Shown: positions 6,652 through 24,000, counted from the stretch's first letter. The stretch is DNA of 24,000 nucleotides from Anaerolineae bacterium (GCA_023382655.1 JAHDWK010000005.1:348138-372137); one strand, 5' to 3'. The notes: generated from the sequence alone by a model not told the origin. Program-made: numbers and translations.

Positions 6652-6683
6652 TGAGGCTCCTCATAATTCCTAATTCCTAATTC

Positions 6684-10017: not shown

Positions 10018-12684
10018 ATGGCAGAAATTCAATTGCAGGTCAACGGCCGTACTCACACCATAAACGCCCATCCTGACACACCGCTACTCTACATCTTACG
10101 CCAGGACTTGGGGCTGAAAAGCCCCAAATATGGCTGCGGCGCGGAGCAGTGTGGCGCATGTAAAGTCCTGGTGGATGGCCAGGCTGTGCCCTCTTGCCAG
10201 TTGCCTGTACACCGCGTACAGGGTTTGCCCATCATCACGTTGGAAGGGTTAGGTACGGCCGAAAAGCCACATCCCCTCCAGGAAGCGTTTATGGCCGAGC
10301 AGGCCATCCAGTGCGGCTATTGTGCCAGCGGCATGATCATCGCCGCCCAGGGGTTGCTCAATCGGGTGCGCTACCCCAGCGACGACGAGATTCGGGGGGC
10401 GCTGGCCGATAACCTTTGCCGCTGCGGCGTCTATGACCGGGTGCGCCGGGCCATCAAGTTGCGTATTGGCCGCCCGGAGCCAGCGCCCATCTACGAAGTG
10501 CATCAGACAGAAACACCCGCGGAGACGGGGACGCCGCCCCCCTTACCGCGCAGCCTGCAACAGACGCCCGACCTGGATCGCTGGCTTCGTATCAATGCGG
10601 ACGAGACCATCACCATTTTCACCGGCAAGGTGGATTATGGTCAGGGGCTAAAAACGGCCGTGGCTCAAATTGTGGCCGAAGAACTGGATGTGTCGCTGGC
10701 ACGCATTCATGTGGTTATGGCCGATACGGCCCAGACGCCTGATGAGGGCATGACCACCGGCAGCATGTCCCTGGAAACAAGCGGTTTAGCCTTGCGCTGG
10801 GTGGCCGCCGCCGCCCGGCATCACCTCCTGTCGGTGGCGTATGAGGTCTTGGAAGCGCCACGTGAACGGCTCGTGGTCAACGATGGCCTGATTACCGACC
10901 CGGTTTCCGGGCGCAGCGTCACCTATGGGGAGTTGTTTGGCGGGCGACCATTCGGATTCCAGGTCACGGGGAATATCCTGCCCAAAGCACCAGAAACGTA
11001 TAATGTTATTGGGCAGCCAAGCGAACGCCTCGACCTGCTGCCCAAAGTGACCGGCGCGGCCACCTTCATCCACGATTTAGAGCTGCCGGGCATGGTTCAC
11101 GGCCGTGTCCTCCGCCCACCTCATGCTCATGCACGATTACTGTCAGTGGATGCAGCCACCGTAGCTGGGATGCCGGGTGTGTTACAGGTGGTACGGGACG
11201 GCCGTTTTCTGGCCGTTATTGCCGAACGGGAAGAGCAGGCCATCAACGCCCTGACCGCTTTGGCCGACAGTGCGGTTTGGGAAGGGTCGGCCCAATTGCC
11301 ACCCGCCGATCAGCTATACCGCGACCTCTTTGCCCAGCCAGACCAGCCGCTGCTCATCGTGGCGGGCACGGCCGTGGACGACCCCATTCCCCCGACCCCG
11401 ATTCCGCTTGAGGCGGCGCAAACGCTGCGGGCCACCTACCATCGCCCCTACCAGATGCACGCCTCCCTCGGCCCGTCGGTGGCCGTAGCCCATTTTGACG
11501 ACGGTAAGTTGACCATCTGGACGCAGGCGCAGGGCGTCTTTCCGCCCCGCGCCGCCATTGCCCACGTCCTGGGCATGAAAGAAGCGGACATTCACGTCAT
11601 ATACCGGGAAGGGGCGGGCGTTTATGGGCACAATGGCGCGGATGACGCGGCCCTGGATGCCGCCTTGCTGGCGCGGGTGCTGCCTGGCCGCCCCGTCTCG
11701 CTGAAATGGATGCGCGCCGACGAACATGGCTGGGAGCCATATGCTCCGGCGATGAAGATTGAACTACAGGCCAGCCTGGATAGTACGGGGGCGATCATAG
11801 ATTGGCAGCAAGATGTCTGGAGTCCTTCCCACCTGGGGCGGTCGCGTTCTGGGCCTGGTATTTCCGGTTTACTGGCCGCGGCTTATCTGGCTGACCCGCT
11901 GTGGCCGCCACCGTCAGCGCCAGCACGAGGTACACACAGCGGCAGCTATCGCAATGCCGACCCGCTGTATGCCTTTGCCCGGCGGCGGATTGTGGCCCAT
12001 CATTTGCCGACCAGCCCGCTGCGCGTTTCGGCCATGCGCGGCCTGGGGGCGGTGGCTAACGTTTTTGCCATCGAGTCGTTTATGGATGAGTTGGCCTACG
12101 CTTCCGGGCAAGACCCGGTAGCTTTTCGCCTGCGCCACCTGGCCGACGAGCGGGCCAAAGCGGTGATTGAAGCGGCGGCTATAAAAGCAGGTTGGCAAAC
12201 GGGCAGGCAGCAATTGGGTCACGGCCGTGGCCGGGGCATCGGTTTTGGTCAATACAAAAACCGGCAGGCGTATACGGCCGTGGTGGTTGACCTGCATGTG
12301 GATGACAGTGGGGAAATTCACCTGGAACACGCCGTCATCGCCGCCGATGCCGGGCAAATTGTCAATCCCGATGGGCTGAGTAATCAGTTGGAAGGCGGCT
12401 TTATTCAGGCGGCCAGCCTCACACTCTATGAACAGGTCACCTGGAATGAACAAGGAATTACCAGTTGTGATTGGGATAGCTACCCTATCTTACGCTTTCC
12501 CCAGGCGCCGGTGATTGAAAACGTGTTGTTGAATCGCCCCCACCTGCCGTTTTTAGGCGCGGGCGAGGCATCTCTGGGGCCAACGGCCGCCGCCATTGCC
12601 AACGCCGTCTTTGCCGCCACCGGGCAGCGCTGGCGCGATTTGCCGTTGACGCAGCAAAGTGCCTTTACCCGCACGACCACTTGA
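10018..12684 (+). CDS. Fused [2Fe-2S] small subunit plus molybdopterin-binding large subunit of an aldehyde oxidase/xanthine dehydrogenase-family oxidoreductase (IorA-IorB-like fusion)
   Basis: Residues 1-150 carry both 2Fe-2S motifs: GCGAEQCGACKVLVDG, and QCGYCASGMI with CRCGVYDRV. The remaining roughly 730 aa resemble IorB-type Mo-binding subunits (KVDYGQGLKTAVAQIVAEEL, ADT..TPDEGMTTGS, GAGVYGHNG, GQIVNPDGLSNQLEGG, GAGEASLGP). The ATG is preceded by AAGGAGAAGGTG. Confidence 0.85.
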   Translation: MAEIQLQVNGRTHTINAHPDTPLLYILRQDLGLKSPKYGCGAEQCGACKVLVDGQAVPSCQLPVHRVQGLPIITLEGLGTAEKPHPLQEAFMAEQAIQCGYCASGMIIAAQGLLNRVRYPSDDEIRGALADNLCRCGVYDRVRRAIKLRIGRPEPAPIYEVHQTETPAETGTPPPLPRSLQQTPDLDRWLRINADETITIFTGKVDYGQGLKTAVAQIVAEELDVSLARIHVVMADTAQTPDEGMTTGSMSLETSGLALRWVAAAARHHLLSVAYEVLEAPRERLVVNDGLITDPVSGRSVTYGELFGGRPFGFQVTGNILPKAPETYNVIGQPSERLDLLPKVTGAATFIHDLELPGMVHGRVLRPPHAHARLLSVDAATVAGMPGVLQVVRDGRFLAVIAEREEQAINALTALADSAVWEGSAQLPPADQLYRDLFAQPDQPLLIVAGTAVDDPIPPTPIPLEAAQTLRATYHRPYQMHASLGPSVAVAHFDDGKLTIWTQAQGVFPPRAAIAHVLGMKEADIHVIYREGAGVYGHNGADDAALDAALLARVLPGRPVSLKWMRADEHGWEPYAPAMKIELQASLDSTGAIIDWQQDVWSPSHLGRSRSGPGISGLLAAAYLADPLWPPPSAPARGTHSGSYRNADPLYAFARRRIVAHHLPTSPLRVSAMRGLGAVANVFAIESFMDELAYASGQDPVAFRLRHLADERAKAVIEAAAIKAGWQTGRQQLGHGRGRGIGFGQYKNRQAYTAVVVDLHVDDSGEIHLEHAVIAADAGQIVNPDGLSNQLEGGFIQAASLTLYEQVTWNEQGITSCDWDSYPILRFPQAPVIENVLLNRPHLPFLGAGEASLGPTAAAIANAVFAATGQRWRDLPLTQQSAFTRTTT

Positions 12685-12762
12685 GTGGCGACCACTTGAG
12701 TCCCTCAAATTTGTATTCAGATGCTGGCGACTGTCCACACCGGGTGCCAGATTCAGGCACAC

Positions 12763-12794
12763 AAAAAAGAGCCATCTCGCGAAAGAGATGGCTC
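12763..12794 (-). terminator. Intrinsic terminator of the micropeptide gene
   Basis: On the - strand the sequence reads GAGCCATCTC-TTTCGC-GAGATGGCTC-TTTTTT. This is a 10-bp perfect stem, a 6-nt loop and a T6 tract. It begins 27 nt after the micropeptide stop codon. It is unidirectional, with no T-tract on the + strand side. Confidence 0.8.
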
Positions 12795-12821
12795 GTTGGA
12801 TCATGCGTGTGTTCGGTTGAA

Positions 12822-12884
12822 TTAGCAGCCGCAGCCACAACCAGAACCGCCACAGCAATCAGATTTTTGTTGCCGGACTAACAT
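12822..12884 (-). CDS. 20-aa Cys/Gly-rich micropeptide MLVRQQKSDCCGGSGCGCGC (7 Cys); function unknown
   Basis: This ORF is below the track's length cut-off. The ATG (12884-12882) is preceded by GGAGGT at 8-nt spacing (aatGGAGGTaaacctgATG). The stop is TAA. A near-consensus promoter lies upstream and a strong terminator lies downstream, forming a complete monocistronic unit of about 200 bp. Confidence 0.6.
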   Translation of the reverse strand: MLVRQQKSDCCGGSGCGCGC

Positions 12885-12922
12885 CAGGTTTACCTCCATT
12901 TAGAATTTTTTGCTCACTACAC

Positions 12923-12971
12923 ATAGACGATCATCTATGCGTTATTATATAGAAGATCGTCTATATGTCAA
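12923..12971 (-). promoter_or_regulatory. Near-consensus sigma70 promoter of the micropeptide gene with two 16-bp palindromic operators
   Basis: All elements read on the - strand. TTGACA lies at 12971-12966, followed by a 16-nt spacer and TATAAT at 12949-12944. Operator A (12949-12964, + strand ATAGAAGATCGTCTAT) fills the spacer. Operator B (12923-12938, + strand ATAGACGATCATCTAT) covers the expected transcription start. Both fit ATAGA-n-GATC-n-TCTAT. Their centres are 26 bp apart. Confidence 0.6.
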
Positions 12972-13061
12972 CCCCTACCCAATGACAATTCTCCGCGCGC
13001 TGGTCACCTGTGGATTCAGCGCCCATGAGGGCATGACCTGTCAAGGAAATATGCAACTCTT

Positions 13062-13098
13062 TTGAAATTTGTACAAGTCGCAGTATACTGAGTATAAT
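13062..13098 (+). promoter_or_regulatory. Candidate padR-operon promoter(s) with an embedded 10-bp palindrome
   Basis: One candidate is TTGAAA (13062-13067), N16, TATACT (13084-13089). An overlapping alternative is TGTACA (13070-13075), N17, TATAAT (13093-13098). The perfect palindrome CAGTATACTG (13081-13090) overlaps the first -10. The padR ATG at 13131 has AAGGAG upstream. Confidence 0.4.
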
Positions 13099-13130
13099 AC
13101 CGGGTATATTCTTGCAAGGAGATTAATCTT

Positions 13131-13682
13131 ATGACTGTTCGCCACGCCATGCTGGCCTTGTTAAGCAATCACCCGAAGTTTGGTTTGCAGTTGCAACAGG
13201 AGTTTGAGTCGGGGACAGGCAAGGTATGGCCTCTCAACGTGGGCCAGGTCTACACGACTCTCCAACGCCTTGAACGAGATGGACTCATCGAATGTGAGAG
13301 TGGGGAAGTTAGGGGTTCACAGAAAGATTACAGAATTACCCCGGCCGGTCGCACCGAACTTACCAACTGGCTCCAGACACCGCCCGATTTAGAACCTCCG
13401 CCAAGGGATGAGCTGGTCATCAAAGTGTTGGCGGCCTTGCGGGTGCCAGGCATCAATGTGCCAGAGCTTTTGCAGATATACCGTCGCCACCTGGTTGAGG
13501 TAATGCAGGGCTACACCTATCTAAAAGCAGAGGGAGTAGATGACGATGTGGCCCTGGCCCTCATTGTGGATGCCCAACTATTCCAGCTTGAAGGGATTAT
13601 ACGGTGGCTCGATTCGGCCGATATTCGCTTGAGGCAATTCGCACCCACCGGCTCAGACATAGGTAATATTGTGGAGGTTTGA
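13131..13682 (+). CDS. PadR family transcriptional regulator (long form with C-terminal dimerisation domain)
   Basis: The 183-aa product has a winged-HTH signature: AMLALLSNHPKFGLQLQQEFE....WPLNVGQVYTTLQRLERDGLIE, then KDYRITPAGRTEL. A helical C-terminal domain follows. Confidence 0.88.
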   Translation: MTVRHAMLALLSNHPKFGLQLQQEFESGTGKVWPLNVGQVYTTLQRLERDGLIECESGEVRGSQKDYRITPAGRTELTNWLQTPPDLEPPPRDELVIKVLAALRVPGINVPELLQIYRRHLVEVMQGYTYLKAEGVDDDVALALIVDAQLFQLEGIIRWLDSADIRLRQFAPTGSDIGNIVEV

Positions 13683-13685
13683 CAA

Positions 13686-14405
13686 ATGACTATAGCACTC
13701 GAACTACGCCAGGTATCAAAAGTCTATGGCGAAGGCCCAACGGCCGTTCGTGCCTTGTGGCAGATTGACTTGTCAGTTAAACGAGGCCAATTGGTAGCCA
13801 TTATGGGGCCGAGCGGATCGGGCAAAAGTACGCTGTTGACGATTGCCGGCAGCCTGGAGGGCCCAACCAGTGGTGAGGTGCTGGTTGGTGGCGCGGCACT
13901 GTCGAGTCTGTCGCGCGATGACCGGGCACGGCTGCGCTGTCGATCAATCGGTTATGTATTTCAGGACTTCAACTTGTTGGCAGGGCTTACGGCGGTAGAG
14001 AATGTGGGGCTTCCTTTGGAGCTGGGCGGTGCGGCCGTCAAAATCGCCCGGTCAGCCGGAATGCAGGCCCTTGAGGCGCTAGGGATCGCGGATCGGGCTG
14101 CCCATTATCCTGATGAACTATCGGGTGGTGAACGACAACGGGTCGCCATTGCTCGAGCCATCGTTGGCGAGCGCTATTTACTGCTCGCTGATGAACCAAC
14201 CGGAGCTCTGGATTCAGTGAATGGAGAGGCGGTGATGCGCCTGCTGCGTACTGCCTGTCAACGTGGGGTAGCTGGTGTTGTTGTAACCCATGACGCTCAA
14301 TTGGCCTCTTGGGCCGATCGGGTCGTGTTTTTGCGCGATGGGAGGGTGGTTGACCAGACTTCATCGCCGAGATTGGAGGTTGCTTACACGGAGGCGATGC
14401 CATGA
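13686..14405 (+). CDS. ABC transporter ATP-binding protein (MacB/LolD/BceA-like subfamily)
   Basis: Walker A is GPSGSGKSTLL, the signature is LSGGERQRVAIARA, Walker B is LLLADEPTGALD, and the H-loop is VVVTHD. The gene starts 3 nt after the padR stop. Confidence 0.9.
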   Translation: MTIALELRQVSKVYGEGPTAVRALWQIDLSVKRGQLVAIMGPSGSGKSTLLTIAGSLEGPTSGEVLVGGAALSSLSRDDRARLRCRSIGYVFQDFNLLAGLTAVENVGLPLELGGAAVKIARSAGMQALEALGIADRAAHYPDELSGGERQRVAIARAIVGERYLLLADEPTGALDSVNGEAVMRLLRTACQRGVAGVVVTHDAQLASWADRVVFLRDGRVVDQTSSPRLEVAYTEAMP

Positions 14406-16888
14406 GCCAATCAAGCCTTATTTCAATACGGAAAGGGGCAGGCGATGGCGGTCTTGCGGCTCGTCGGGCTGTGATCCGTTGGGCGTGGCGGCTGTTTCGC
14501 CGTGAGTGGCGGCAGCAACTGTTGGTATTGGGTCTGCTTACCCTGGCTGTGGCTACGGCCGTTTTCACTGCTGCATCGGCTTACAACCTGGCTCCTGTGC
14601 CGGGTAATGCTGAGTTTGGTATGGTAAATCATTACCTCCAGTTCAATGCCATTACGCCAGAAGGATTGGCGCAGGATATTGCCTTTGCCGAAACACAGTA
14701 TGGTACCATTGAGGTCATCGGCCGTTGGTTTGTGGCAGTACCTGGCTCAGTAGAGAGCATCGAGTTTAGGGCGCAAAACCCGCAAGGGGCTTATAGTGGG
14801 CCGATGTTGGCGCTGCTAGACGGCCGTTACCCCACCCACGCTGATGAAGTTGCCGTAACGGATGATGTGGCGGCAACCTTCGCTCTGGGCATTGGCGACC
14901 CCTTTGCCCTTGATGGTGTGGCGCGGACGGTGGTGGGCATAGTCGAAAATCCCAGCGACTTAAATGCTGAATTTGCCCTGGTGTCCCCCTCGTCCGATGA
15001 ACTACCGCAAGAGGTGATAATCCTGGTTGAGGCCACTGACGAGCAGGTGATCCCCTTTCGCGCACCCAGTGGAGCGACAACAACGAGGGCACGGCGGCCA
15101 GGCAACGAAGATGTAGTCGCCGCTGTAGGCGTCTTTGGCTCCACAGCCGTGACAATGCTGCTCATCGCGCTCGTCGCTACGACCAGTTTTATGGTGATAG
15201 CCCAGCGCCGCCTGCGCCAATTGGGTATGCTGGCGGCTGTCGGCGGCACCGAAAAGCACCTTCGTCTGGTGACGGTTGCCAGTGGGGTGATGATTGGTCT
15301 CCTGGCAGGGGTCATTGGTGTGGTGATCGGCCTGGCAGCCTGGTTGGCGGCGACGCCATTCATGGAACCGGTTGTTGGCTTTCGCATTAACCCGCTCAAT
15401 GTTCCCTGGTGGCTGATCGCTACCAATATCCTGCTGGCAATTATCACTGCCAGCGCAGCCGCCTGGTGGCCCGCACGTAGAATGGCGCGAATCCCTATTA
15501 TTCTGGCCCTTTCCGGCCGTCCACCCAAGCCGAAGCCAGCCCGACGTTCGGCAGCACTGGCCGGATTTTTTATCTTGGGCGGTGTCGTTTGCCTTGTCCT
15601 GGCCAACCAGACGAGCCAACTGCTTATTGTCATCGGTACTGTGGCGACTATCCTGGGGGTGCTGCTTATTGGCCCGTTTGTGCTCCAGGCTGTCGCCGCC
15701 GCAGCTGGATCGTTTCCCATTGCGGTGCGGTTAGCACTGCGCGATTTGGCCCGTTATCAGGATCGTGCCGGGGCAGCATTGGCGGCGATTAGCCTGGCTT
15801 TGGGTATTGCCGCAGCCATCGTCATCACTTCGGCGGCCGCAGAATTTACGGCCGACAAAGGCAACCTGGCCGAGAATCAGCTTTTAATTCGGACGGGCAC
15901 AGCGGTGCAGTCAGAGGGGGACAGTATTGGGGGACCATTTGTGCCAGACAGGACCCCCGCTGAACTGGACAACCTTGAAGCACAGATTACCCGATTGACG
16001 ACCGTATTGAACAATGCAGCGGTGATCCCTTTAGACGTAGCTTTCGACCCGGCGATGGAACCAGATCCCGCGTTTGGGGGGCGACCCACTGTTACCCTGG
16101 GCGAATACACCGATTTGGGTGGCATTAGCGGCTATCGAGACCTGACGCTGCTTTATGTGGCTACACCAGAGCTGCTCCATTATTATGGAATTGATGTGGA
16201 GACGATTGATCCGGCTGCAGAAGTTCTCACAGTCGAAACAGGTGAAATCAGGTTTATCGGCGTGTCCCGCTTGCCAGGCACGCGGCCGGAATTGGTAGCC
16301 AATTTTGAGCAAATATCTCCCAGTTATTCGTCGCTGCCTGGTTCATTTATCACACCGGATGCTCTGCGCCAGCGTGGTTGGGAAACGGCGCCGGTGGGCT
16401 GGCTGATTGAGGCCAATGGACCGCTCACCGCTGAGCAAATCGCTGCCGCCCGCCAGATTGCCGCAGATGCTGGTTTGACAATTGAATCACGCGACCACCA
16501 GGAAGGTTTGCTGGCCCTGCGTTCACGGGCAACGGCCGTTGGTTTATTCGTCGCCCTGGCTATTCTGGCCATGACCGTCGGCCTCATCCGCAATGAAGCA
16601 GCGGGTGATCTCAGAACACTGACGGCTGCAGGAGCTACGAGCAGGATTCGCCGCACTCTGACAGCGGCTACTGCTGGCACACTTGCCCTGCTTGGCGCTG
16701 TGCTAGGTACGGCGGGGGCATATGTCGCGCTCATCGCCGGGTACATGAGCGATATTTCAGCCCTGCGTCATGTGCCGGTTCTCAACTTACTGCTCATCGT
16801 GGTCGGTATTCCGTTGATCGCGGTGATGGCTGGCTGGATCATGGCTGGACGCGAACCGGTGATGCTCAGCCGACAACCTATCGAGTGA
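14402..16888 (+). CDS. ABC transporter permease with two FtsX-type modules and two large extracytoplasmic domains (BceB-like 10-TM architecture)
   Basis: The 828-aa product is coupled to the ATPase gene by an ATGA start/stop overlap. After the first TM helix comes a soluble domain of about 180 aa, then an FtsX-like 3-TM block (…AQRRLRQLGMLAAVGGTEKHLR…). Further TM helices are followed by a second soluble domain of about 220 aa. A second FtsX-like block closes the protein (…IRNEAAGDLRTLTAAGATSRIRR…). Confidence 0.85.
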   Translation: MSQSSLISIRKGAGDGGLAARRAVIRWAWRLFRREWRQQLLVLGLLTLAVATAVFTAASAYNLAPVPGNAEFGMVNHYLQFNAITPEGLAQDIAFAETQYGTIEVIGRWFVAVPGSVESIEFRAQNPQGAYSGPMLALLDGRYPTHADEVAVTDDVAATFALGIGDPFALDGVARTVVGIVENPSDLNAEFALVSPSSDELPQEVIILVEATDEQVIPFRAPSGATTTRARRPGNEDVVAAVGVFGSTAVTMLLIALVATTSFMVIAQRRLRQLGMLAAVGGTEKHLRLVTVASGVMIGLLAGVIGVVIGLAAWLAATPFMEPVVGFRINPLNVPWWLIATNILLAIITASAAAWWPARRMARIPIILALSGRPPKPKPARRSAALAGFFILGGVVCLVLANQTSQLLIVIGTVATILGVLLIGPFVLQAVAAAAGSFPIAVRLALRDLARYQDRAGAALAAISLALGIAAAIVITSAAAEFTADKGNLAENQLLIRTGTAVQSEGDSIGGPFVPDRTPAELDNLEAQITRLTTVLNNAAVIPLDVAFDPAMEPDPAFGGRPTVTLGEYTDLGGISGYRDLTLLYVATPELLHYYGIDVETIDPAAEVLTVETGEIRFIGVSRLPGTRPELVANFEQISPSYSSLPGSFITPDALRQRGWETAPVGWLIEANGPLTAEQIAAARQIAADAGLTIESRDHQEGLLALRSRATAVGLFVALAILAMTVGLIRNEAAGDLRTLTAAGATSRIRRTLTAATAGTLALLGAVLGTAGAYVALIAGYMSDISALRHVPVLNLLLIVVGIPLIAVMAGWIMAGREPVMLSRQPIE

Positions 16889-17212
16889 TCGCCTGCAAAG
16901 AGCATAGTCACCTGTGTTAGCTATCTCCAGGTGAAGTAGAAAATCTACCGTCAGCATCAGGTCAACGGCCGTGTTCACTACGTTTGGATTTTTGCCAGTG
17001 AATCAGAAGAGTCGTTGACAACGATTTTGACAACTGGTTATACGGGGTACACCCAACTTTATATGAACGGGCCTGGTTTGGGTCAACTGACAGGGCCAGT
17101 GGGTTGGCGATGAATTGCGTCTGAGACAGGATGAATACGGCCGTCCATGCCACTCTCTCGAGGGTTGGACAACAGTAAAAATGCAAGGGGAACAATCCAG
17201 GCAGTAAATTTC

Positions 17213-20173
17213 CTACATCATTTGTCGCTTGGCCAAATCGGCAAACACGCCTTCTGTTTTGATTAACTCGTCATAGGCGCCTTGCTGCACGACACGGCCG
17301 TCTTGCAGCACATAGATGCGGTCGGCGTTCATAATGGTGCTTAGCCGGTGGGCAATCACAATGCGGGTGGCCTGCAAATTATCCAGGCTCTCGCTGACAA
17401 TGGCCTGGGTGCGGTTGTCCAATGCGCTGGTAGCTTCGTCAAAAAAGAGGATGCGCGGCTGGTGTACCAGGGCACGAGCAATAAGCAGACGTTGCCGTTG
17501 TCCGCCAGACAGTGTGCCGCCACCTTCACTGAGTACCGTATGTAACCCCATGGGCATGGCTCTGATATCATCTTCCAGCCCGGCCATACGTACCGCCCGG
17601 CGGGCATCTTCAATGGTGAGCAGTGACGAGCCAACGATATTGGTGAAAATATCACCGGCCATCAATTTCCCGTTTTGTAATACCACGCCGATCTGGCGAC
17701 GTACCTCACGAATGTCTAAACCGGCCAGGTCACGGCCGTTGTAATAAACGGCGCCTGCCTCTGGCGTCTCAAAACCTAATAACAGGCGGAACAAGGTTGA
17801 TTTACCTGACCCTGAAGGCCCCACCAGGGCGACAAACTCACCGGGTTTCACCTGCACGGAAACATCCTGCAGAATGGCCGGCCCATCTGCCCGGTATCGG
17901 AAAGAAACGTGGCTAACTTCTAATTCTCCGGTCAATTCACCGGGGTCAGCTTTCATCTCATCCACTTCTGGTAAGGTTTCCAAAATCGGTTTGGCTCGTT
18001 CATAGGTGGGCACGATATTGAGGATAGTCACGACGGCCTGACCCAAAACCAGCACCGCCGCCAGGAATTGGACAAAAGCGGCATTAAACGCCAGAAATTG
18101 TCCGGTGGACATCGCTTCCTGACTAGAATAAGTAACCATTCCAAAGATGACAATGCTGGTGATCAGAGGAAAGGCAGCGTTAAACACTGTCAAGCGATTA
18201 GCCGTTTCACGCGCTTCATACTCTGTCTGCTTGTAACGGCTAAATTTACCGGCCCACGAAGCAAATGCATGACCTTCTACACCGGCAGCCCGCAATTTGG
18301 TTATCCCAGAGATCGTTTGCAGAACAATACCGGCGATCTGCCCCTGGAGATCAACCAATGAACGTTGATACCGAACCTGTACCCGTCCGGCGATGATGGT
18401 AACGGCCAGAGCTATGCTAACCAGAAATACAGCCACCAGTGCCAGACGGCCGTCATACCAAAAAAGCAACAACACCGAGGTGATGGAAAATACGCCTGTC
18501 AGCAACGATTGGACGACCACAGAAGACAATGTGCGTTCAATCATACTGATACCCATTACCCGCTGCCCCAGATCGCCGGCGGTATAGTCCCGGAAAAAGG
18601 AGACCGGCAACCCCAGCAGGCGATCCCACATAGCGGCCTGAATGGAATGCCCCATTTGCCCCTGCAAGCGTAACAGAGCTACGTTTTGGGTGATCTGCAC
18701 GCATAATGAGGCCAGGGCCACAAAAACCAGCAGAACACTCACCTGGAAAAGCTGCGCCCGGCTTTCATTGGGGATGATCTGGTCAATAATAAAGCCTGTT
18801 GCGATGGGAATGAACAATCCCAAAAGACTAATAACCAGGCCACATAAAAAGATGGTGCGCATGTCGTAGCCAATGTGACGCAGCCCAAACTTTACCAGAT
18901 CAAAGAGGGATAAGGCTTTTACAGGAAATGGCCGGTAAAAGGTAAAAGCGAAGGGATGTAACGTGCTGGCCACCTCTTCATCAACGACACGTTTTTCACC
19001 TGAAGACATGATCATCTCATATCTCTGACGTGGCCGTGGCAGTAAAGCTGCTGCCTGTTTTGGCTCCTCATCGCCGGCCAGAAAAGCCAACATAGGGCCA
19101 TGATTGAGCCGCCACCATTCTCCTTTGAGAGCGACGCGGCGTATTTGCACGCGGGAAGCACGGGTGATCTCGCTTAATGGATCAGCATTTTCTTTTTGAC
19201 GGCCGCCGGGTGGTTCTTTGAATTCGATGCCGAGTTGTGCGCCGAGCAGTTGGCAGGTAGCAAGCAAGGGATGGGTGTTACGGCCGTCTATCGCCGTCCG
19301 CTCCGCGGGGTTAATAAAACGGGCTGCCAGGTGACTGAGTGCCTGACCAACCATCTCCTGGTGAGAGGTGACTTTATTATGAAGACGTTCTTTGTCCTCC
19401 TCTCTCTTTTGATCCAGCCATTGTTCCAGAAAGCAGAGAATAAGCTGGTGAAACGGCGCCAGACCAAAACCTGTGGCGCCATTTTGGAGGAAGGCGGTGG
19501 TTGTGGTCACCTCAAGCTGGCTAGGCTCCATTGCTTTGAGCCAGGTACGGCTAGAGATAGGCCAGTAGAGTGTGCCATTCAGAACCGGCAACGCCACATT
19601 GCCCATAAAGGTAGATTTTCCCCTGGCGTGTCTGACCCACAAAATTCCTCGCCTGGCAGAGGCAGTGTCAGCAGGTTGCAACTGATTGCTCTGATTCAAT
19701 TCCAGGCGAATGCTTGTTTTGGGCGGTAAGACTGTTGCCAGGGCGGATGACAAATTACTAATCCAGCCGTCCACCAACGCCGCTACATGTGCGCCAAACT
19801 CCTCGTCACGCGCCAGATTCTCTAGTTGGCTTGCCTTCACTTGCAACAGGCTGGCGTTATTACTGCCTACAGCCAGCAGACCAACCCGGTCAACTTCAGG
19901 AACTAATGCCATGCCAAATAATGCCTGTCCGGCCGGTACACGAAACAGATGCTCCCGCGAACCGGCGACCTTGCCATTTTGCAGCGGCACGGCAAACAAG
20001 TCTACCCAACCGGCATAGACTACCCAGGCTATGGTGGGGTCGTTGAGCAATTCGGGGGCATTATTCCCCAATTTTTCCAGAAGGGCTGCCTTATAGCGCA
20101 AATGGAGCAGAAACAACTCTTCAACTTTATATTCTTCTGCCGGTTCTTGAGGAAGTTTTGTTGGTTCGTTCAT
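17213..20173 (-). CDS. NHLM/NHLP-type bacteriocin (RiPP) export ABC transporter, permease/ATPase subunit without peptidase domain, with an N-terminal extension of about 440 aa
   Basis: An ABC exporter TMD is followed by an NBD with Walker A GPSGSGKST, signature LSGGQRQRLLIARAL and Walker B ILFFDEATSALD. The long N-terminal region (e.g. LFRVPAGQALFGM) occupies the position where related exporters carry a cyclic-nucleotide-binding-like domain. I prefer the ATG at 20173 (MNEPTKLP...), which overlaps the upstream stop as ATGA. The tracked start at 20266 would overlap the upstream gene by 97 nt. Confidence 0.85.
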   Translation of the reverse strand: MNEPTKLPQEPAEEYKVEELFLLHLRYKAALLEKLGNNAPELLNDPTIAWVVYAGWVDLFAVPLQNGKVAGSREHLFRVPAGQALFGMALVPEVDRVGLLAVGSNNASLLQVKASQLENLARDEEFGAHVAALVDGWISNLSSALATVLPPKTSIRLELNQSNQLQPADTASARRGILWVRHARGKSTFMGNVALPVLNGTLYWPISSRTWLKAMEPSQLEVTTTTAFLQNGATGFGLAPFHQLILCFLEQWLDQKREEDKERLHNKVTSHQEMVGQALSHLAARFINPAERTAIDGRNTHPLLATCQLLGAQLGIEFKEPPGGRQKENADPLSEITRASRVQIRRVALKGEWWRLNHGPMLAFLAGDEEPKQAAALLPRPRQRYEMIMSSGEKRVVDEEVASTLHPFAFTFYRPFPVKALSLFDLVKFGLRHIGYDMRTIFLCGLVISLLGLFIPIATGFIIDQIIPNESRAQLFQVSVLLVFVALASLCVQITQNVALLRLQGQMGHSIQAAMWDRLLGLPVSFFRDYTAGDLGQRVMGISMIERTLSSVVVQSLLTGVFSITSVLLLFWYDGRLALVAVFLVSIALAVTIIAGRVQVRYQRSLVDLQGQIAGIVLQTISGITKLRAAGVEGHAFASWAGKFSRYKQTEYEARETANRLTVFNAAFPLITSIVIFGMVTYSSQEAMSTGQFLAFNAAFVQFLAAVLVLGQAVVTILNIVPTYERAKPILETLPEVDEMKADPGELTGELEVSHVSFRYRADGPAILQDVSVQVKPGEFVALVGPSGSGKSTLFRLLLGFETPEAGAVYYNGRDLAGLDIREVRRQIGVVLQNGKLMAGDIFTNIVGSSLLTIEDARRAVRMAGLEDDIRAMPMGLHTVLSEGGGTLSGGQRQRLLIARALVHQPRILFFDEATSALDNRTQAIVSESLDNLQATRIVIAHRLSTIMNADRIYVLQDGRVVQQGAYDELIKTEGVFADLAKRQMM

Positions 20174-22449
20174 GCGGTTATTGACTCCCATATTGAATCG
20201 AGTAGTCGCTCTGATTTGGGTGTATCCGCTTGGATCAGGTGGGCGTAATGCCCACCTTTGCGCCACAATTGTTCGTGTGTGCCACGCTCTACGACCAGTC
20301 CCTTGTCTAGCACAATGATTTCATCACAATCACGGATGGTACTCAAACGATGGGCGATTATAAGACAGGTACAGCCCCGACGGCGCAAGTTGTTGTCCAC
20401 AATTTTTTCGGTAACGGGATCCAGGGCGCTAGTGGCTTCATCCAATACCAGGATAGAGGGATTGGTGACCAGGGCGCGGGCAATTTCCAGACGCTGCCGC
20501 TGACCGCCGCTAAAGTTACGGCCGCCTTCACTTACCAGGCGATCATAGCCGTCGGGCTGGTTAGCAATATCATCATGGATGTGAGCATCCTTGGCGGCCT
20601 GGATGACGCTTTCTTCAGGAATGAACGAATCCCACATGGTCAAGTTCTCTTTAACTGACCCGGCAAACAAGAATATATCCTGGTCTACGATGGAGAGAGA
20701 GTTATTTAATATGATCCGCGGGATATGGGCGCGGGTTTGTCCATCAAACAGAATTTGACCTTCCCAGGGTTGATACAGGCCCGCTACCAGTCTGGCAACG
20801 GTAGATTTGCCGCTGCCGCTGCCCCCTACCAGAGCGACGCGGGAGCCTGGTTCCAGGTAGAGGTTAAAATCCTCAATAAGGGGTTTGGCTAATTTGCTGT
20901 AACCAAACGTGATGTGGCGCAATTCGATGGTTCCAGATAGTTTGGTCGGGCTGTTTTCCAGGTGCGCAGTGGAGTCTACCACCTGTACCTGGGGATCAGG
21001 TTGGTAATCAAGAACGTCATCTAATTTGTTGAGAGAGGCTTCCATTTCCTGTAGCTGGGCGCCCAGGCCCACCATCTCGTTGACAGGGGTCAGAAAGCTG
21101 ATCATCAGGGTTTGAAAAGCTACCAAAACACCGAGAGAAAGCTGGCCGTTTATGATTTGCAGGCCGCCAATGGTCAGGATAACAACACTGGTTAAAGTTG
21201 TCAGGAAGAGGGGTACGGCCGTGACAATTTGTGTTGTCTGGCCTAGTTCTTGGGTGGCGTTAAATACTTTGGCCTGATAACCTGCCCAGCGAGCAAAAAA
21301 GTCAGGCTCCCCGCCGGTAGCTTTGATTGTTTCAATGTTTTGCAGCCCACTAAAAGCTGTGGCCAACATCTTGCTGTTTTCCATTACCAGCCGTTGGTTA
21401 GCATCTGTGCGCCGACGAGAAGCAGCCCGCAATACCACAAAGTTAAGTGCGGCCATGCCAATACCCACCAGGGTTAATAAAACGCTATAACGAAACATGA
21501 CCGCAGCGTAGAAAGCAATTAATACGAGATTGAGCAAGGAAGTGGCCAGTTGACCGGAAAGTAATTGGGCTACCCGATCATTGATGCCCACCCGGGAACT
21601 GATGTCGCCGGCGCTGCGCTGGGTGAAAAACTCAATGGGCAGGCGCAAAATGTGCCAGAGCAGCCGACTGGAATTGAGTAATGAAAGTCGGGATTCCAGC
21701 CGCAGCAGATAATGTTGTTGCACGGCCGTGAGTATTCCGCGTAGTACGGCCGTGATTCCCATACCAATCAACAATGGCCCCACCCACGATTCCATTCCCT
21801 GTACCAGATAGTAATCTACAAAAAACGCGGAAAATGCCGGAATCAAAATACCTGGAATCAATAACAACAGGCTCACCAGAACGATATACAGTAGGGCTGT
21901 TTCTGACCCCCGCAAACGTTTGTACAAAGCAGTGAACAGGCTGCCCTGTTTGCTCTCTTTTTTGAATTGTTCGCTCTTTTCAAAAGTAAGCACCACGCCT
22001 GTAAAAGCCTGATCAAACTCTTCCGTGGAAACCACACGCGGGCCTGTGGCTGGATCGTTCAGAAAAACCTTGTCTTTGCTAAAACCTTCCACTACCAGAA
22101 AATGATTAAAATTCCAGTGGACGATCATGGGTAGAGGCAAGTCACGCAAAGGGCCTGGGCCATAGCGGAATCCTCTGGCCGTCAGGCCATAGGTACGGGC
22201 GGCGCGCAAGACATTGCTGGCCTTGCTGCCATCACGCGAGACGCCACATTGCACCCGCAACTCTTCCAGCGGCACATAACAACCATGGAAAGCTAACACA
22301 ATCGCCAGAGCGGCCGCGCCACATTCCACCGCCTCCATCTGTAAGATAGTTGGTGTTTTCACGCGCTGCTTGCGGGGCCAACGGCGAGATTTTCGCACGC
22401 GAGATTCTCGCGCACTCTCCTTGTTTTCCACTTGCATTTCTTGGGTCAT
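20170..22449 (-). CDS. NHLM/NHLP-type bacteriocin export ABC transporter with N-terminal C39 leader peptidase domain (peptidase/permease/ATPase)
   Basis: The C39 domain shows PTILQMEAVECGAAALAIVLAFHG (catalytic Cys) and IVHWNFNHFLVVEG (His). A six-helix TMD follows. The NBD has GGSGSGKST, FSGGQRQRLEIARAL and ILVLDEATSALD. The ATG at 22449 has AGGTG upstream. The tracked start at 22455 is a GTG. Confidence 0.9.
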   Translation of the reverse strand: MTQEMQVENKESARESRVRKSRRWPRKQRVKTPTILQMEAVECGAAALAIVLAFHGCYVPLEELRVQCGVSRDGSKASNVLRAARTYGLTARGFRYGPGPLRDLPLPMIVHWNFNHFLVVEGFSKDKVFLNDPATGPRVVSTEEFDQAFTGVVLTFEKSEQFKKESKQGSLFTALYKRLRGSETALLYIVLVSLLLLIPGILIPAFSAFFVDYYLVQGMESWVGPLLIGMGITAVLRGILTAVQQHYLLRLESRLSLLNSSRLLWHILRLPIEFFTQRSAGDISSRVGINDRVAQLLSGQLATSLLNLVLIAFYAAVMFRYSVLLTLVGIGMAALNFVVLRAASRRRTDANQRLVMENSKMLATAFSGLQNIETIKATGGEPDFFARWAGYQAKVFNATQELGQTTQIVTAVPLFLTTLTSVVILTIGGLQIINGQLSLGVLVAFQTLMISFLTPVNEMVGLGAQLQEMEASLNKLDDVLDYQPDPQVQVVDSTAHLENSPTKLSGTIELRHITFGYSKLAKPLIEDFNLYLEPGSRVALVGGSGSGKSTVARLVAGLYQPWEGQILFDGQTRAHIPRIILNNSLSIVDQDIFLFAGSVKENLTMWDSFIPEESVIQAAKDAHIHDDIANQPDGYDRLVSEGGRNFSGGQRQRLEIARALVTNPSILVLDEATSALDPVTEKIVDNNLRRRGCTCLIIAHRLSTIRDCDEIIVLDKGLVVERGTHEQLWRKGGHYAHLIQADTPKSERLLDSIWESITA

Positions 22450-22489
22450 AGACACACCTGATGGTTAGAAGCTAAAATTTGTAAAAAAG

Positions 22490-23314
22490 TTACCTACCGG
22501 AAAAGAGCAATTCAATAGGACGTTGCCAACCAATGACGATGTTTGCCTGCCCCAAAGAGCCACTGGTAAGTGAAAAATCCGGTCCCGAAGCCGATGTCCA
22601 GGCCAGTCCCGTAGGTGTTGTGGCATCTTCTAATAGGGCAATGCGCACCTTCACAGGTGCATCACTGTTCGCAATCATTGCCGCCAATTCTTCATTGCCT
22701 ATGTTGGCGACAATCCCTGACCAGGAAGAGGGGAAACTGTCAATAGAAACAATTTGCCCCAAAAGGAAACCATACTCTTCTGGTAACGCGGTTTCTGGCG
22801 CCAGTTTCACCGCTAGACCTGGCGATAAGCGCCGGGCATCCTGCCGGGAGAGATAAGCGACAGCTTCCAGGTAAACCTGACCATCAACAGGCTCCAGGCT
22901 GACAATGGGTGCGCCCGGTTCAATCAAATACCCCTCATTTGTTTTCACCTCAACGACACGGCCGTTGTATGGAGAAAGAACGGGCTGTACCGTATCCTGG
23001 CCGATAGATTTGATATGGGCAATAACCTGACCCGCTTCTACTACGTTTCCCGATGAGACGGTCAGATCGGAAACCTGGCCGCCATATAATGAGATGACAT
23101 TCTGAATGCCACCCGGTGGCAGAAAGATGACGGGACCGGCCACTTCCACCGGCATACGGCTGAATATGCTCCAGAGTACGGCCGTCAGTAAAAGCCCCAT
23201 TAACCCTGCCAGAGCGAGCCAACTTTTAGAGCCGGTTACATGCATCAGCAAATCGAGTTGTTCAGGGGATGATAATCTGTCTAGAGCCACTTTTCGGAAA
23301 ATTTGTGAGGTCAT
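22490..23314 (-). CDS. HlyD-family membrane fusion / secretion protein of the NHLM export system (unusually short, coiled-coil hairpin essentially absent)
   Basis: The 274-aa product begins IFRKVALDRLSSPEQLD and carries a TM helix (WLALAGLMGLLLTAVLWSIF). The lipoyl-like halves are GGQVSDLTVSSGNVVEAGQVIAHIKS and SPYNGRVVEVKTNEGYLIEPGAPIVSLEP. Only about 10 residues separate them. The gene lies immediately upstream of the two ABC genes. Confidence 0.78.
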   Translation of the reverse strand: MTSQIFRKVALDRLSSPEQLDLLMHVTGSKSWLALAGLMGLLLTAVLWSIFSRMPVEVAGPVIFLPPGGIQNVISLYGGQVSDLTVSSGNVVEAGQVIAHIKSIGQDTVQPVLSPYNGRVVEVKTNEGYLIEPGAPIVSLEPVDGQVYLEAVAYLSRQDARRLSPGLAVKLAPETALPEEYGFLLGQIVSIDSFPSSWSGIVANIGNEELAAMIANSDAPVKVRIALLEDATTPTGLAWTSASGPDFSLTSGSLGQANIVIGWQRPIELLFSGR

Positions 23315-23318
23315 ATCT

Positions 23319-23993
23319 TTATCCTACTCCTTGCATTTCCAGGTTCTGTAATGCCTGGCACAATAGATCAGCTGCCCCTTCTGCCGCCAATTCCTCTAGT
23401 GTGAATCGTGTGATGGCCAGCAGCATAAATGCCTGTCCTGGAACATCACGGTGTGCTTGCCGGGCAATGGTATGAAAACGTTCTATATTTCTGGCGGCGG
23501 CTACGACCTGTTTTTGTATCTCGATAAAGTTGTCACTCTGCAATACCGTCTTATCAAGATAATTCTGCAAGCGTCCCCCCTCTCGATAATATGGGAACGA
23601 TTCAAGCCCCATAAAGCGTAAGAACCAGTCAGCGTTGAATGTGCCCAGCGCCGCGACAATGCCCGCATAATCAGCCAGTAATTCGTCGAATATGTCACGG
23701 CGCATGAGGCCAAAAACACGCTTGGTGAAGTAGTGAGTACATTCATGTTCCAGCCGAATAGTCAGTGAAAGTTGCCGCCAGGCAGTTTCCGTTAACCCCA
23801 TGTCGTGCGCCGCTACACCGCTATAAGGTCCATCGAGCAAAATCATAAACCGGTCTTGATAGAAATGTTTTTGAGGGATTAACCGTTTGAACTCTGCTTG
23901 CCAGCCTGCTTCCGCCCTGTTTTGCGGATTTTCCAGTTCCCATTGTGTGCGGTAAGAGCGAATTCTGTCCCAATTGATATAACCAGATACCAT
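23319..23993 (-). CDS. Hypothetical protein with an HExxH metallopeptidase-like motif, first visible gene of the NHLM export operon (the N-terminus may extend beyond the window)
   Basis: The ORF is at least 224 aa. The motif is RLEHECTHYFTKRVFGLMRRDIFDELLADY: HExxH followed about 20 residues later by D-E, a gluzincin-like spacing. Its stop lies 4 nt before the HlyD start. The two codons upstream of the ATG at 23993 are still open at the window edge. I recognise no family. Confidence 0.55.
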   Translation of the reverse strand: MVSGYINWDRIRSYRTQWELENPQNRAEAGWQAEFKRLIPQKHFYQDRFMILLDGPYSGVAAHDMGLTETAWRQLSLTIRLEHECTHYFTKRVFGLMRRDIFDELLADYAGIVAALGTFNADWFLRFMGLESFPYYREGGRLQNYLDKTVLQSDNFIEIQKQVVAAARNIERFHTIARQAHRDVPGQAFMLLAITRFTLEELAAEGAADLLCQALQNLEMQGVG

Positions 23994-24000
23994 ACATGCG

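What the first reader, a model, noticed from the sequence alone, without database searches (positions are those of the whole stretch)
17213..23993. NHLM/NHLP-type RiPP export operon with no precursor or maturase in view; the cluster is cut by the window edge
Three genes in the canonical order (HlyD-family protein, C39-peptidase ABC transporter, second peptidase-less ABC transporter with a long N-terminal extension) match the dedicated export machinery described for nitrile-hydratase-leader and Nif11-leader peptides. The C39 domain cleaves those leaders after Gly-Gly.

The genes are translationally coupled: a 4-nt gap, a 40-nt gap, then an ATGA overlap. I found no NHLP/Nif11-like precursor, LanM, cyclodehydratase or radical-SAM gene inside the window.

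The operon is transcribed leftwards from beyond nt 24000. The cargo and tailoring genes are therefore expected just upstream, at coordinates above 24000. The chemistry of this cluster cannot be determined from the window.
Basis: partly seen in the sequence, partly recalled or inferred. Interest (0 to 1): 0.65.

Follow-up and report, generated by a model that had tools for sequence, protein, structure and literature searches.

The report
Lanthipeptide export operon, cargo found upstream
The flagged genes are a known type of peptide-cleaving export pump, and the missing cargo is a two-peptide lanthipeptide gene cluster with two sugar-transferases just past the window edge, which makes it an ordinary new example apart from one unstudied conserved gene.

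Summary
On the minus strand, 17213-23314 encodes a HlyD-like adaptor, a C39-peptidase ABC transporter and a peptidase-less ABC transporter. All three score above NCBI's equivalog cut-offs for TIGR03794, TIGR03796 and TIGR03797.

At 23319-24000 lies the 3' part of a DUF7005 gene, 4 nt upstream of the adaptor gene.

A public contig identical to the window over 11.5 kb extends it by 7 kb. It shows, in one operon: precursor, LanM, two GT1 glycosyltransferases, a flavin reductase, DUF7005, and the three exporter genes. Relatives about 92% identical carry two precursors ending in AGG, followed by a 14-16 residue core with two Cys.

The leaders pass the lichenicidin/mersacidin model but fail the NHLP and Nif11 models.

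The adaptor lacks the roughly 148-residue coiled-coil hairpin. This short form is recurrent in databases.

DUF7005 carries an invariant HExxH-x16-ExxAD motif. It lies next to this exporter type in 35 of 41 informative metagenome loci, and I found no paper that mentions it.

Verdict: a new member of a known export system in a predicted glycosylated class II lanthipeptide cluster. Interest is moderate to low.

The parts
23319..24000 (-). The 3' part (residues 144-369 plus stop) of a 369-aa DUF7005 gene. The gene starts at extrapolated coordinate 24428, beyond the window.
   Evidence: PF22541 scores E = 1.6e-88 and matches profile positions 157-360 of 361. There is no in-frame stop before nt 24000. 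The full gene is on the identical contig L001 at 6594-7703.
23670..23747 (-). The HECTH-x16-ELLAD motif of DUF7005 (residues 228-253). It resembles the gluzincin HExxH...ExxAD signature.
   Evidence: The motif residues are invariant in a 24-sequence alignment. The motif is present in 121 of 121 listed homologues. It lies in two consecutive predicted helices, 214-239 and 246-261.
22490..23314 (-). HlyD-family membrane-fusion adaptor of the NHLM_micro_HlyD family, in a short form of 274 aa.
   Evidence: TIGR03794 scores 229.9 bits against a cut-off of 156.2, in two stretches. There is one N-terminal TM segment at residues 32-52. It starts 4 nt after the DUF7005 stop.
22982..23011 (-). Site where the coiled-coil hairpin is missing. 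Adaptor residues 102-111 replace about 148 residues present in 420-aa relatives.
   Evidence: BLASTP against P0285 (419 aa) aligns residues 1-101 to 1-101 and 112-271 to 250-410. The P0285 insert at 102-249 is a charged, heptad-like sequence.
20170..22449 (-). ABC1, a C39 peptidase / permease / ATPase exporter (NHLM_micro_ABC1).
   Evidence: TIGR03796 scores 1116.3 bits against 853.3 and matches profile positions 1-710 of 710. Pfam finds Peptidase_C39, ABC_membrane and ABC_tran. It aligns end to end with PCAT1 (4ry2) and ComA (8hf7).
21970..22356 (-). C39 double-glycine peptidase domain of ABC1 (residues 32-160).
   Evidence: PF03412 scores E = 7e-35 and matches profile positions 2-132 of 133. 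The sequence shows Q-x5-EC(GAAAL), NHFLVV and NDP motifs.
17213..20173 (-). ABC2, a permease / ATPase without a peptidase domain (NHLM_micro_ABC2). Its start overlaps the ABC1 stop (ATGA).
   Evidence: TIGR03797 scores 950.9 bits against 709.4, with residues 301-985 matching profile positions 2-686. The Walker A, signature, Walker B and H-loop motifs are intact in the sequence.
19274..20173 (-). N-terminal extension of ABC2, 300 residues, fold unassigned.
   Evidence: It lies outside the TIGR03797 model. It is conserved in ABC2 homologues next to DUF7005 at 23-47% identity. It has no Pfam hit. hhalign against cNMP-binding proteins is negative. The AF2 model has pLDDT 41.

Best explanation
Window 17213-24000 is the downstream half of one leftward-transcribed operon of about 14 kb for a class II lanthipeptide.

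The gene order is: lanA1, lanA2 (A1 is seen only in relatives about 92% identical), lanM, GT1, GT1, flavin reductase, DUF7005, short HlyD-like adaptor, ABC1 (C39), ABC2.

Proposed mechanism:
1. LanM dehydrates Ser/Thr and forms up to two thioether rings in the 14-16 residue core (L/G)APTIGSCNMISCF(DL).
2. The GT1 paralogues probably add sugar(s).
3. The cytoplasmic C39 domain of ABC1 cuts the 62-residue leader after Ala-Gly-Gly.
4. An ABC1/ABC2 pair, with both ATP sites intact, exports the core peptide together with a membrane-anchored adaptor that lacks the hairpin which docks an outer-membrane channel.
5. DUF7005 is a soluble protein with a gluzincin-like metal site. It is a conserved accessory of this exporter type. 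Its role is unknown; my guess is that it acts on the leader.

Shown here: gene content and order, family memberships, motifs, and co-occurrence. Inferred: the heterodimer, the glycosylation, the ring pattern and the role of DUF7005.
For: - The three exporter proteins score above the equivalog cut-offs.
- L001 is identical to the window over 11,511 nt and carries LanM, GT, GT, flavin reductase, DUF7005 and the exporter genes on one strand, with short gaps. The largest listed gap in this cluster is 159 nt, between A1 and A2 in L016/L015.
- LanM scores 976 bits on TIGR03897 against a cut-off of 304.
- L001 positions 1-57 encode ...VAGGLAPTIGSCNMISCF*, ending 116 nt before lanM.
- L015 and L016, about 92% identical, carry two precursors of 78 and 76 aa with a GG site. 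Both pass TIGR03898.
- A strong terminator precedes A1 in L016, which marks the operon start.
- The same architecture, with a 275-aa adaptor 4 nt after DUF7005, occurs in the more distant cluster L021.
- The C39 domain is full length.
- ABC1 aligns end to end with PCAT1.
- The GTs resemble the natural-product GT1 enzymes CalG1, CalG4 and OleD.
Against: - The precursor in the window's own strain is seen only as its last 18 codons. A1 and the full leaders come from relatives about 92% identical.
- No product has been observed.
- The GTs and the flavin reductase could act on something other than the peptide. The flavin reductase has no partner oxygenase in the operon and is not of the LanJB family.
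- Exporters of this type in cyanobacteria often stand alone and serve precursors scattered around the genome. This one may therefore also export other peptides.
- No terminator was detected after ABC2.
Confidence: 0.85

Rival explanations
1. The three exporter genes form a general-purpose exporter for NHLP/Nif11 peptides encoded elsewhere in the genome. On this view they merely sit next to the LanM cluster and are not its dedicated exporter.
For: In Tolypothrix and Scytonema the DUF7005-exporter module stands without an adjacent maturase, or next to varied Nif11 precursors. Precursors with unrelated cores lie near these modules in many loci. Haft et al. found the cassette by phylogenetic profiling against multi-copy precursor families.
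Against: The exporter genes are on the same strand as the tailoring genes and tightly spaced with them: 4 nt, 40 nt and an overlap. The cluster has no other transporter. The arrangement is conserved in L016 and L021. The cluster's own precursors carry the matching ELxDEELEAVAGG cleavage motif.
Confidence: 0.1
2. The 274-aa adaptor gene is a decayed remnant of a normal 420-480 aa HlyD gene, so the export system is defective.
For: About 148 residues are missing compared with 420-aa relatives. Most adaptors in DUF7005 loci are 480-540 aa.
Against: The ORF is intact and closely spaced with its neighbours. The same length is kept at 94% identity (L016-L020), at 47% identity (275 aa in L021) and in L059 (274 aa). 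Of the 150 best representative clusters at 50% identity, 51 are 300 aa or shorter and align end to end. The excision is clean, at the point where the hairpin enters the lipoyl domain. It leaves a contiguous lipoyl-like hit at residues 79-140.
Confidence: 0.04
3. DUF7005 is a tailoring enzyme for the core peptide, for example an alpha-ketoglutarate/Fe HExxH hydroxylase. On this view it is not an accessory of the exporter.
For: HExxH proteins in RiPP clusters can be alpha-KG-dependent hydroxylases or backbone-cleaving enzymes rather than zinc proteases (PMC12636437). The gene lies between the tailoring genes and the export genes.
Against: It gives no NCBIfam hit (E <= 1) or Pfam hit (E <= 5) other than DUF7005 itself. 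It accompanies exporters whose nearby precursors have unrelated cores, with or without LanM or radical-SAM enzymes. This fits a role tied to the shared leader or exporter better than a role in core chemistry.
Confidence: 0.15

Closest known systems
NHLP/Nif11 three-gene transport cassette (TIGR03794, TIGR03796, TIGR03797; Haft et al. 2010, PMC2887384)
   Same: The three families, the gene order and the GG-leader cargo are the same. All three HMMs are passed above their equivalog cut-offs.
   Different: The adaptor lacks the coiled-coil hairpin. The cargo leader is the shorter lichenicidin type. A DUF7005 gene is closely spaced upstream, 4 nt from the adaptor gene, and the passages of the 2010 paper that I read list only three transport families.
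PCAT1 (C. thermocellum, PDB 4ry2), ComA and LahT peptidase-containing ABC exporters
   Same: ABC1 has the same C39-TMD-NBD architecture and aligns end to end (E = 2e-98). Cleavage after a double Gly on the cytoplasmic side is established for this class.
   Different: Those exporters act as homodimers without a second peptidase-less ABC subunit. Here a paralogous ABC2 with a 300-residue N-terminal extension and an adaptor protein are co-encoded.
Cyanobacterial bacteriocin gene clusters, groups IV (LanM) and V (three-gene cassette) (Wang et al. 2011, PMC3140520)
   Same: A LanM gene sits next to HlyD, a C39-ABC and a peptidase-less ABC. The nearest LanM and DUF7005 relatives are cyanobacterial, at 50-63% identity.
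   Different: This cluster has a short adaptor, GT1 genes, no separate cNMP-binding protein, and a lichenicidin-type leader instead of an NHLP or N11P leader.
Lichenicidin/mersacidin-type class II lantibiotics (leader model TIGR03898)
   Same: The leader motif VVKAWRDPEYRETLS plus ELTDEELEAVAGG matches the family consensus IIRAWKDPEYRASLSSE / ELSDEELESITGG. The maturase is a LanM.
   Different: The core has no similarity to mersacidin or lichenicidin and lacks the TxTxEC motif. The leader is 62 residues rather than about 47. Export uses a three-part NHLM system, and two glycosyltransferases are present.
Glycosylated lanthipeptides NAI-112 (class III) and cacaoidin (class V)
   Same: A lanthipeptide cluster that encodes glycosyltransferase(s).
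   Different: Those belong to classes III and V. The 2023 review (PMC10373908) names only these two, one class III and one class V, and no class II example. Glycosylation here is only predicted.
Gluzincin metallopeptidases (thermolysin / neprilysin type) and alpha-KG HExxH hydroxylases, as comparators for DUF7005
   Same: DUF7005 has HExxH followed 16 residues later by ExxAD, on two consecutive helices. This is the gluzincin signature as I recall it from memory.
   Different: DUF7005 shows no sequence or fold match to any zincin or to IPR026337-type enzymes. Metal binding and activity are untested.

Membership tests
TIGR03794 NHLM_micro_HlyD | HMM score above the curated equivalog cut-off | tested here: met
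   229.9 bits against 156.2.
TIGR03794 NHLM_micro_HlyD | Full-length match to the 421-position model, including the coiled-coil hairpin | tested here: not met
   The match comes in two stretches. The best covers residues 112-273, matching profile positions 256-418. About 148 residues are absent compared with P0285.
TIGR03796 NHLM_micro_ABC1 | HMM score above cut-off, with C39 peptidase, permease and ATPase in one chain | tested here: met
   1116.3 bits against 853.3, matching profile positions 1-710 of 710. Pfam finds C39, ABC_membrane and ABC_tran.
TIGR03797 NHLM_micro_ABC2 | HMM score above cut-off and no peptidase domain | tested here: met
   950.9 bits against 709.4. There is no Peptidase_C39 hit.
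NHLM three-gene cassette | The three genes are adjacent and co-oriented, next to GG-leader precursors | tested here: met
   The precursors lie about 7 kb upstream in the same operon.
NHLP leader (TIGR03793) | Precursor scores above the model cut-off | tested here: not met
   22.2 and 22.9 bits against 50.9. Only the last 15 leader residues match.
Nif11-type leader (TIGR03798) | Precursor scores above the model cut-off | tested here: not met
   17.0 and 14.4 bits against 32.3.
Mersacidin/lichenicidin type 2 lantibiotic precursor (TIGR03898) | Precursor scores above the model cut-off | tested here: met
   39.3 and 39.0 bits against 23.5, for A1 and A2 of L015. For the window's own strain only the last 18 codons are available.
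Class II lanthipeptide synthetase LanM (TIGR03897) | HMM score above cut-off, with dehydratase and LanC-like cyclase domains | tested here: met
   976.2 bits against 304. Pfam finds DUF4135 and LANC_like.
Gluzincin metallopeptidase (for DUF7005) | HExxH plus a downstream Glu as the third metal ligand | tested here: met
   HECTH-x16-ELLAD is present in 121 of 121 homologues. That this motif defines gluzincins is from memory.
Gluzincin metallopeptidase (for DUF7005) | Zincin fold, or sequence homology to a peptidase family | tested here: not met
   The best Foldseek hit in the PDB has E = 0.8 and TM below 0.2, with a model of pTM 0.75. There is no hit in PDB sequences, Pfam or NCBIfam.
Gluzincin metallopeptidase (for DUF7005) | Zinc binding and peptide hydrolysis | not testable with these tools
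   This needs biochemistry.
Cyclic-nucleotide-binding domain (for the ABC2 N-terminal extension) | Match to PF00027 or to cNMP-binding proteins | tested here: not met
   The window protein gives no hit. Three of 24 homologues match weakly, with best E = 0.005, below the gathering score. hhalign probability is 0.2%. The AF2 model is unusable.
LanJB dehydro-amino-acid reductase | [quoted passage not shown] | tested here: not met
   The operon's reductase is a PF01613, HpaC/RutF-like flavin reductase.

The most novel reading that the evidence does not exclude
DUF7005 is an unrecognised fourth core component of the NHLP/Nif11-type export system. On this reading it is a soluble metalloenzyme with a gluzincin-like HExxH-x16-ExxAD site that acts on the common leader. 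It might, for example, destroy the 60-90 residue leader that the C39 domain releases inside the cell. A second novel reading is that the operon's product would be the first glycosylated class II lanthipeptide.
Probability: 0.3. Interest if true: 0.6.

Novelty: new member of a known kind. Interest (0 to 1): 0.38.

Why it matters
The exporter itself is ordinary. Standard annotation pipelines would name all three proteins.

Three things go beyond routine:
- **Predicted product.** It is a very small two-Cys class II lanthipeptide with two GT1 enzymes. The 2023 review I read (PMC10373908) lists no glycosylated class II lanthipeptide.
- **Adaptor.** A recurrent hairpin-less form suggests how this system works where no outer-membrane channel has to be docked.
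- **DUF7005.** The family has at least 2,485 database members, mostly in Nostocales. It carries an invariant metal-site motif and is tightly linked to these exporters, yet I found no paper that mentions it. It is a cheap, well-defined target for learning what else double-glycine leader export needs.

Tried and rejected
- **Source genome and taxonomy.** The genome-contig scan with LanM returned only relatives at 39% identity or less, not the source genome. Names are hidden for window-encoded proteins, and two cluster look-ups gave no organism names. I know only that the source is a 4,997,118-bp NCBI contig. The idea that the short adaptor reflects a single-membrane envelope is therefore untested.
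- **Contig look-up.** P0125 was not on record.
- **ABC2 N-terminal extension.**
  - Pfam and NCBIfam gave nothing.
  - hhalign against the cyanobacterial cNMP-binding protein was negative twice.
  - The last protein search returned only 2 hits.
  - The shallow-alignment model had pLDDT 41.
  - I reject 'cNMP-binding domain' as an assignment, though not as a possibility.
- **DUF7005.** PDB sequence search, Foldseek against the PDB and lenient Pfam scans all found nothing.
- **Flavin reductase as LanJB.** Rejected, because it belongs to a different family.
- **Transcription signals and RNAs.** No terminator or promoter was detected after ABC2. The window has no Rfam families or tRNAs.
- **Precursors in the window.** None were found by tblastn or by motif scan.
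Full report
**Observation**

The minus strand of 17213-24000 carries four closely spaced ORFs:
- 23319-24000, which runs off the window edge;
- 22490-23314, 274 aa;
- 20170-22449, 759 aa from the ATG at 22449;
- 17213-20173, 986 aa from the ATG that overlaps the preceding stop.

**Family assignment**

Against NCBIfam, the three named proteins pass the curated equivalog cut-offs of the NHLM families:

| Model | Score (bits) | Cut-off |
|---|---|---|
| TIGR03794 | 229.9 | 156.2 |
| TIGR03796 | 1116.3 | 853.3 |
| TIGR03797 | 950.9 | 709.4 |

The generic type I secretion and bacteriocin-ABC models score below their cut-offs. Pfam finds a full-length C39 domain only in ABC1. ABC1 aligns end to end with PCAT1 and ComA. 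Both ABC proteins keep the Walker A, signature, Walker B and H-loop motifs. This is compatible with a heterodimer with two active sites, which is an inference.

**The fourth gene**

ORF 23319-24000 matches Pfam DUF7005 at E = 1.6e-88, but only profile positions 157-360 of 361. No stop precedes it in frame. The window therefore holds residues 144-369 of a 369-aa protein.

**Extending the window**

The adaptor protein is encoded on a public Logan contig, L001. It is 100% identical to window 12490-24000 over 11,511 nt, and window coordinate = 31022 minus L001 coordinate.

Upstream on the same strand, at extrapolated window coordinates, lie:
- DUF7005, 23319-24428;
- a PF01613 flavin reductase, 24490-25005;
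- two GT1 glycosyltransferases, 25047-26330 and 26356-27597;
- LanM, 27600-30848 (TIGR03897, 976 bits against 304);
- the last 18 codons of a precursor (...VAGGLAPTIGSCNMISCF*), 30965-31021, where the contig ends.

The two glycosyltransferases are 50% identical to each other. Their nearest solved relatives are CalG1, CalG4 and OleD.

Two relatives about 92% identical in DNA, L015 and L016, show the complete upstream end. They carry a dCache sensor gene, then a ParA/MinD-like ATPase gene followed by a strong terminator, then two precursors:
- A1, 78 aa: MSTISSEQVVKAWRDPEYRETLS...ELTDEELEAVAGG|GAPTIGSCNMISCFDL
- A2, 76 aa: ...ELTDDELEAVAGG|LAPTIGSCNMISCF

lanM follows them.

No precursor-like ORF exists inside the window, and no other maturase does either.

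**Leader type**

A1 and A2 pass TIGR03898, the mersacidin/lichenicidin model (39 bits against 23.5). They fail the NHLP model (22 against 50.9) and the Nif11 model (17 against 32.3).

Haft et al. 2010 list the lichenicidin leader as a shorter relative that shares both NHLP motifs, IIRAWKDPEYRASLSSE and ELSDEELESITGG. Both motifs match these peptides almost exactly. The cargo is therefore an NHLP-clan relative but not a member of the NHLP or Nif11 families.

**Mechanism**

- Shown: gene content, gene order, families and motifs.
- Inferred from established knowledge of LanM enzymes and PCAT-type exporters: LanM installs up to two thioether rings in a core with three Ser/Thr and two Cys. The C39 domain removes the 62-residue leader after GG on the cytoplasmic side. 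ABC1 and ABC2, with the adaptor, export the peptide.
- Glycosylation by the GT1 pair is likely but untested. A 2023 review names only NAI-112 (class III) and cacaoidin (class V) as glycosylated lanthipeptides.
- The flavin reductase has no partner oxygenase in the operon. It is not the LanJB family described for D-amino-acid formation. Its role is open.

**The short adaptor**

Against a 419-aa representative, residues 1-101 and 112-271 align with 1-101 and 250-410. The missing 148 residues are a charged, heptad-like coiled-coil segment. This is the hairpin that in HlyD-family adaptors reaches the outer-membrane channel, which is established knowledge.

The gene is not a wreck:
- The same length recurs at 94% and at 47% identity, and in metagenome locus L059.
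- Of the 150 best representative clusters out of 4,957 hits, 51 are 300 aa or shorter and align in one stretch.

I could not identify the organism. A link to a single-membrane envelope therefore remains a hypothesis.

**DUF7005**

- At least 2,485 homologues exist. They are mostly from Nostocales and are all annotated as hypothetical.
- No paper in the searched library contains the term.
- All 121 listed homologues keep HExxH-x(14-20)-ExxAD, usually HECTH...ELIAD, and lack TM-like segments.
- An AF2 model (pLDDT 76, pTM 0.75) places the motif on two consecutive helices behind a beta-sheet.
- Foldseek finds no PDB relative, with best E = 0.8. Neither do sequence searches.

Of 41 non-redundant metagenome loci with at least 9 kb of flank, the following numbers carry each neighbour within 10 kb:

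| Neighbour | Loci |
|---|---|
| At least one NHLM exporter gene | 35 |
| Adaptor plus C39-ABC | 30 |
| A 364-aa tandem cNMP-binding protein, usually immediately downstream | 30 |
| A ParA-like ATPase, usually immediately upstream | 23 |
| LanM | 10 |

Nearby precursors are NHLP or Nif11 type with unrelated cores. In Tolypothrix and Scytonema the gene string is: dCache/HAMP sensor, an unknown protein of about 866 aa, ParA, DUF7005, cNMP protein, HlyD, ABC1, ABC2. In the window's lineage the lanthipeptide cassette sits between ParA and DUF7005.

This pattern ties DUF7005 to the exporter or the leader rather than to core chemistry. HExxH proteins in RiPP pathways can also be alpha-KG/Fe oxygenases, so a peptidase role is only one option. 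These loci were retrieved with motif-containing patterns. They therefore cannot be used to test motif conservation, and I used them only for gene neighbourhoods.

**ABC2 N-terminal extension**

The extension is conserved among ABC2 proteins of these loci at 23-47% identity, but it remains unassigned.

**Verdict**

It is a new member of a known export system, in a previously uncharacterised but conventional class II lanthipeptide cluster. Three modest points go beyond routine: predicted glycosylation, the hairpin-less adaptor, and the conserved unstudied DUF7005 gene.

Noticed in passing
window 12974-17204 (PadR 13131-13682, ABC ATPase 13686-14405, 828-aa double-FtsX permease 14402-16888; + strand): This three-gene PadR / ABC / FtsX cassette converges on the export operon and is a strain-specific insertion or deletion. 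In the 92%-identical relative L016, the ABC2 stop is followed directly by the xanthine-dehydrogenase-like gene. It could be an acquired resistance or immunity pump, but it is not a fixed part of the cluster.
   Followed up: partly
L024 4778-20298; L026 4951-19700; most of L027-L106: Cyanobacterial loci share a conserved gene string: dCache/HAMP sensor, a protein of about 866 aa with no Pfam hit, ParA/MinD-like ATPase, DUF7005, a 364-aa tandem cNMP-binding protein, HlyD, ABC1, ABC2. This suggests signal-regulated export. I found no description of it.
   Followed up: partly
L021 2836-17208 (GCA_011525915.1, WYBM01000097.1): This is the nearest distinct cluster, with DUF7005 at 63% identity. It has one precursor with the same leader type but a different core (RLQDDDCTCTQGCTGTKGFTAF), LanM, one GT1 and an S9 prolyl-oligopeptidase-like protease in place of the flavin reductase. 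DUF7005 and a 275-aa adaptor follow, again 4 nt apart.
   Followed up: partly
P0278 (327 aa, ENA): A stand-alone protein resembles the ABC2 N-terminal extension (26% identity over half the query, E = 3e-9). The extension may therefore be an independent domain or module.
   Followed up: no
L016 16443-19700 compared with window 10018-12684: The xanthine-dehydrogenase-like Fer2/MoCoBD gene is 888 aa in the window. In L016 it is called as 1085 aa, with an N-terminal TPR part. The 90% cluster also holds 1887-aa versions.
   Followed up: no
L001 80-94 / L016 2368-2382 (between lanA2 and lanM): A weak hairpin (GGTGTAGAG(C/T)ACGCC) lies between the last precursor gene and lanM. It could be an attenuator that sets the precursor-to-enzyme ratio, but its score is no better than chance.
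   Followed up: no
window 4720-6651 (+): A 643-aa protein combines a GH99/GH71-like glycoside hydrolase region with two LysM domains. It is unrelated to the finding.
   Followed up: no
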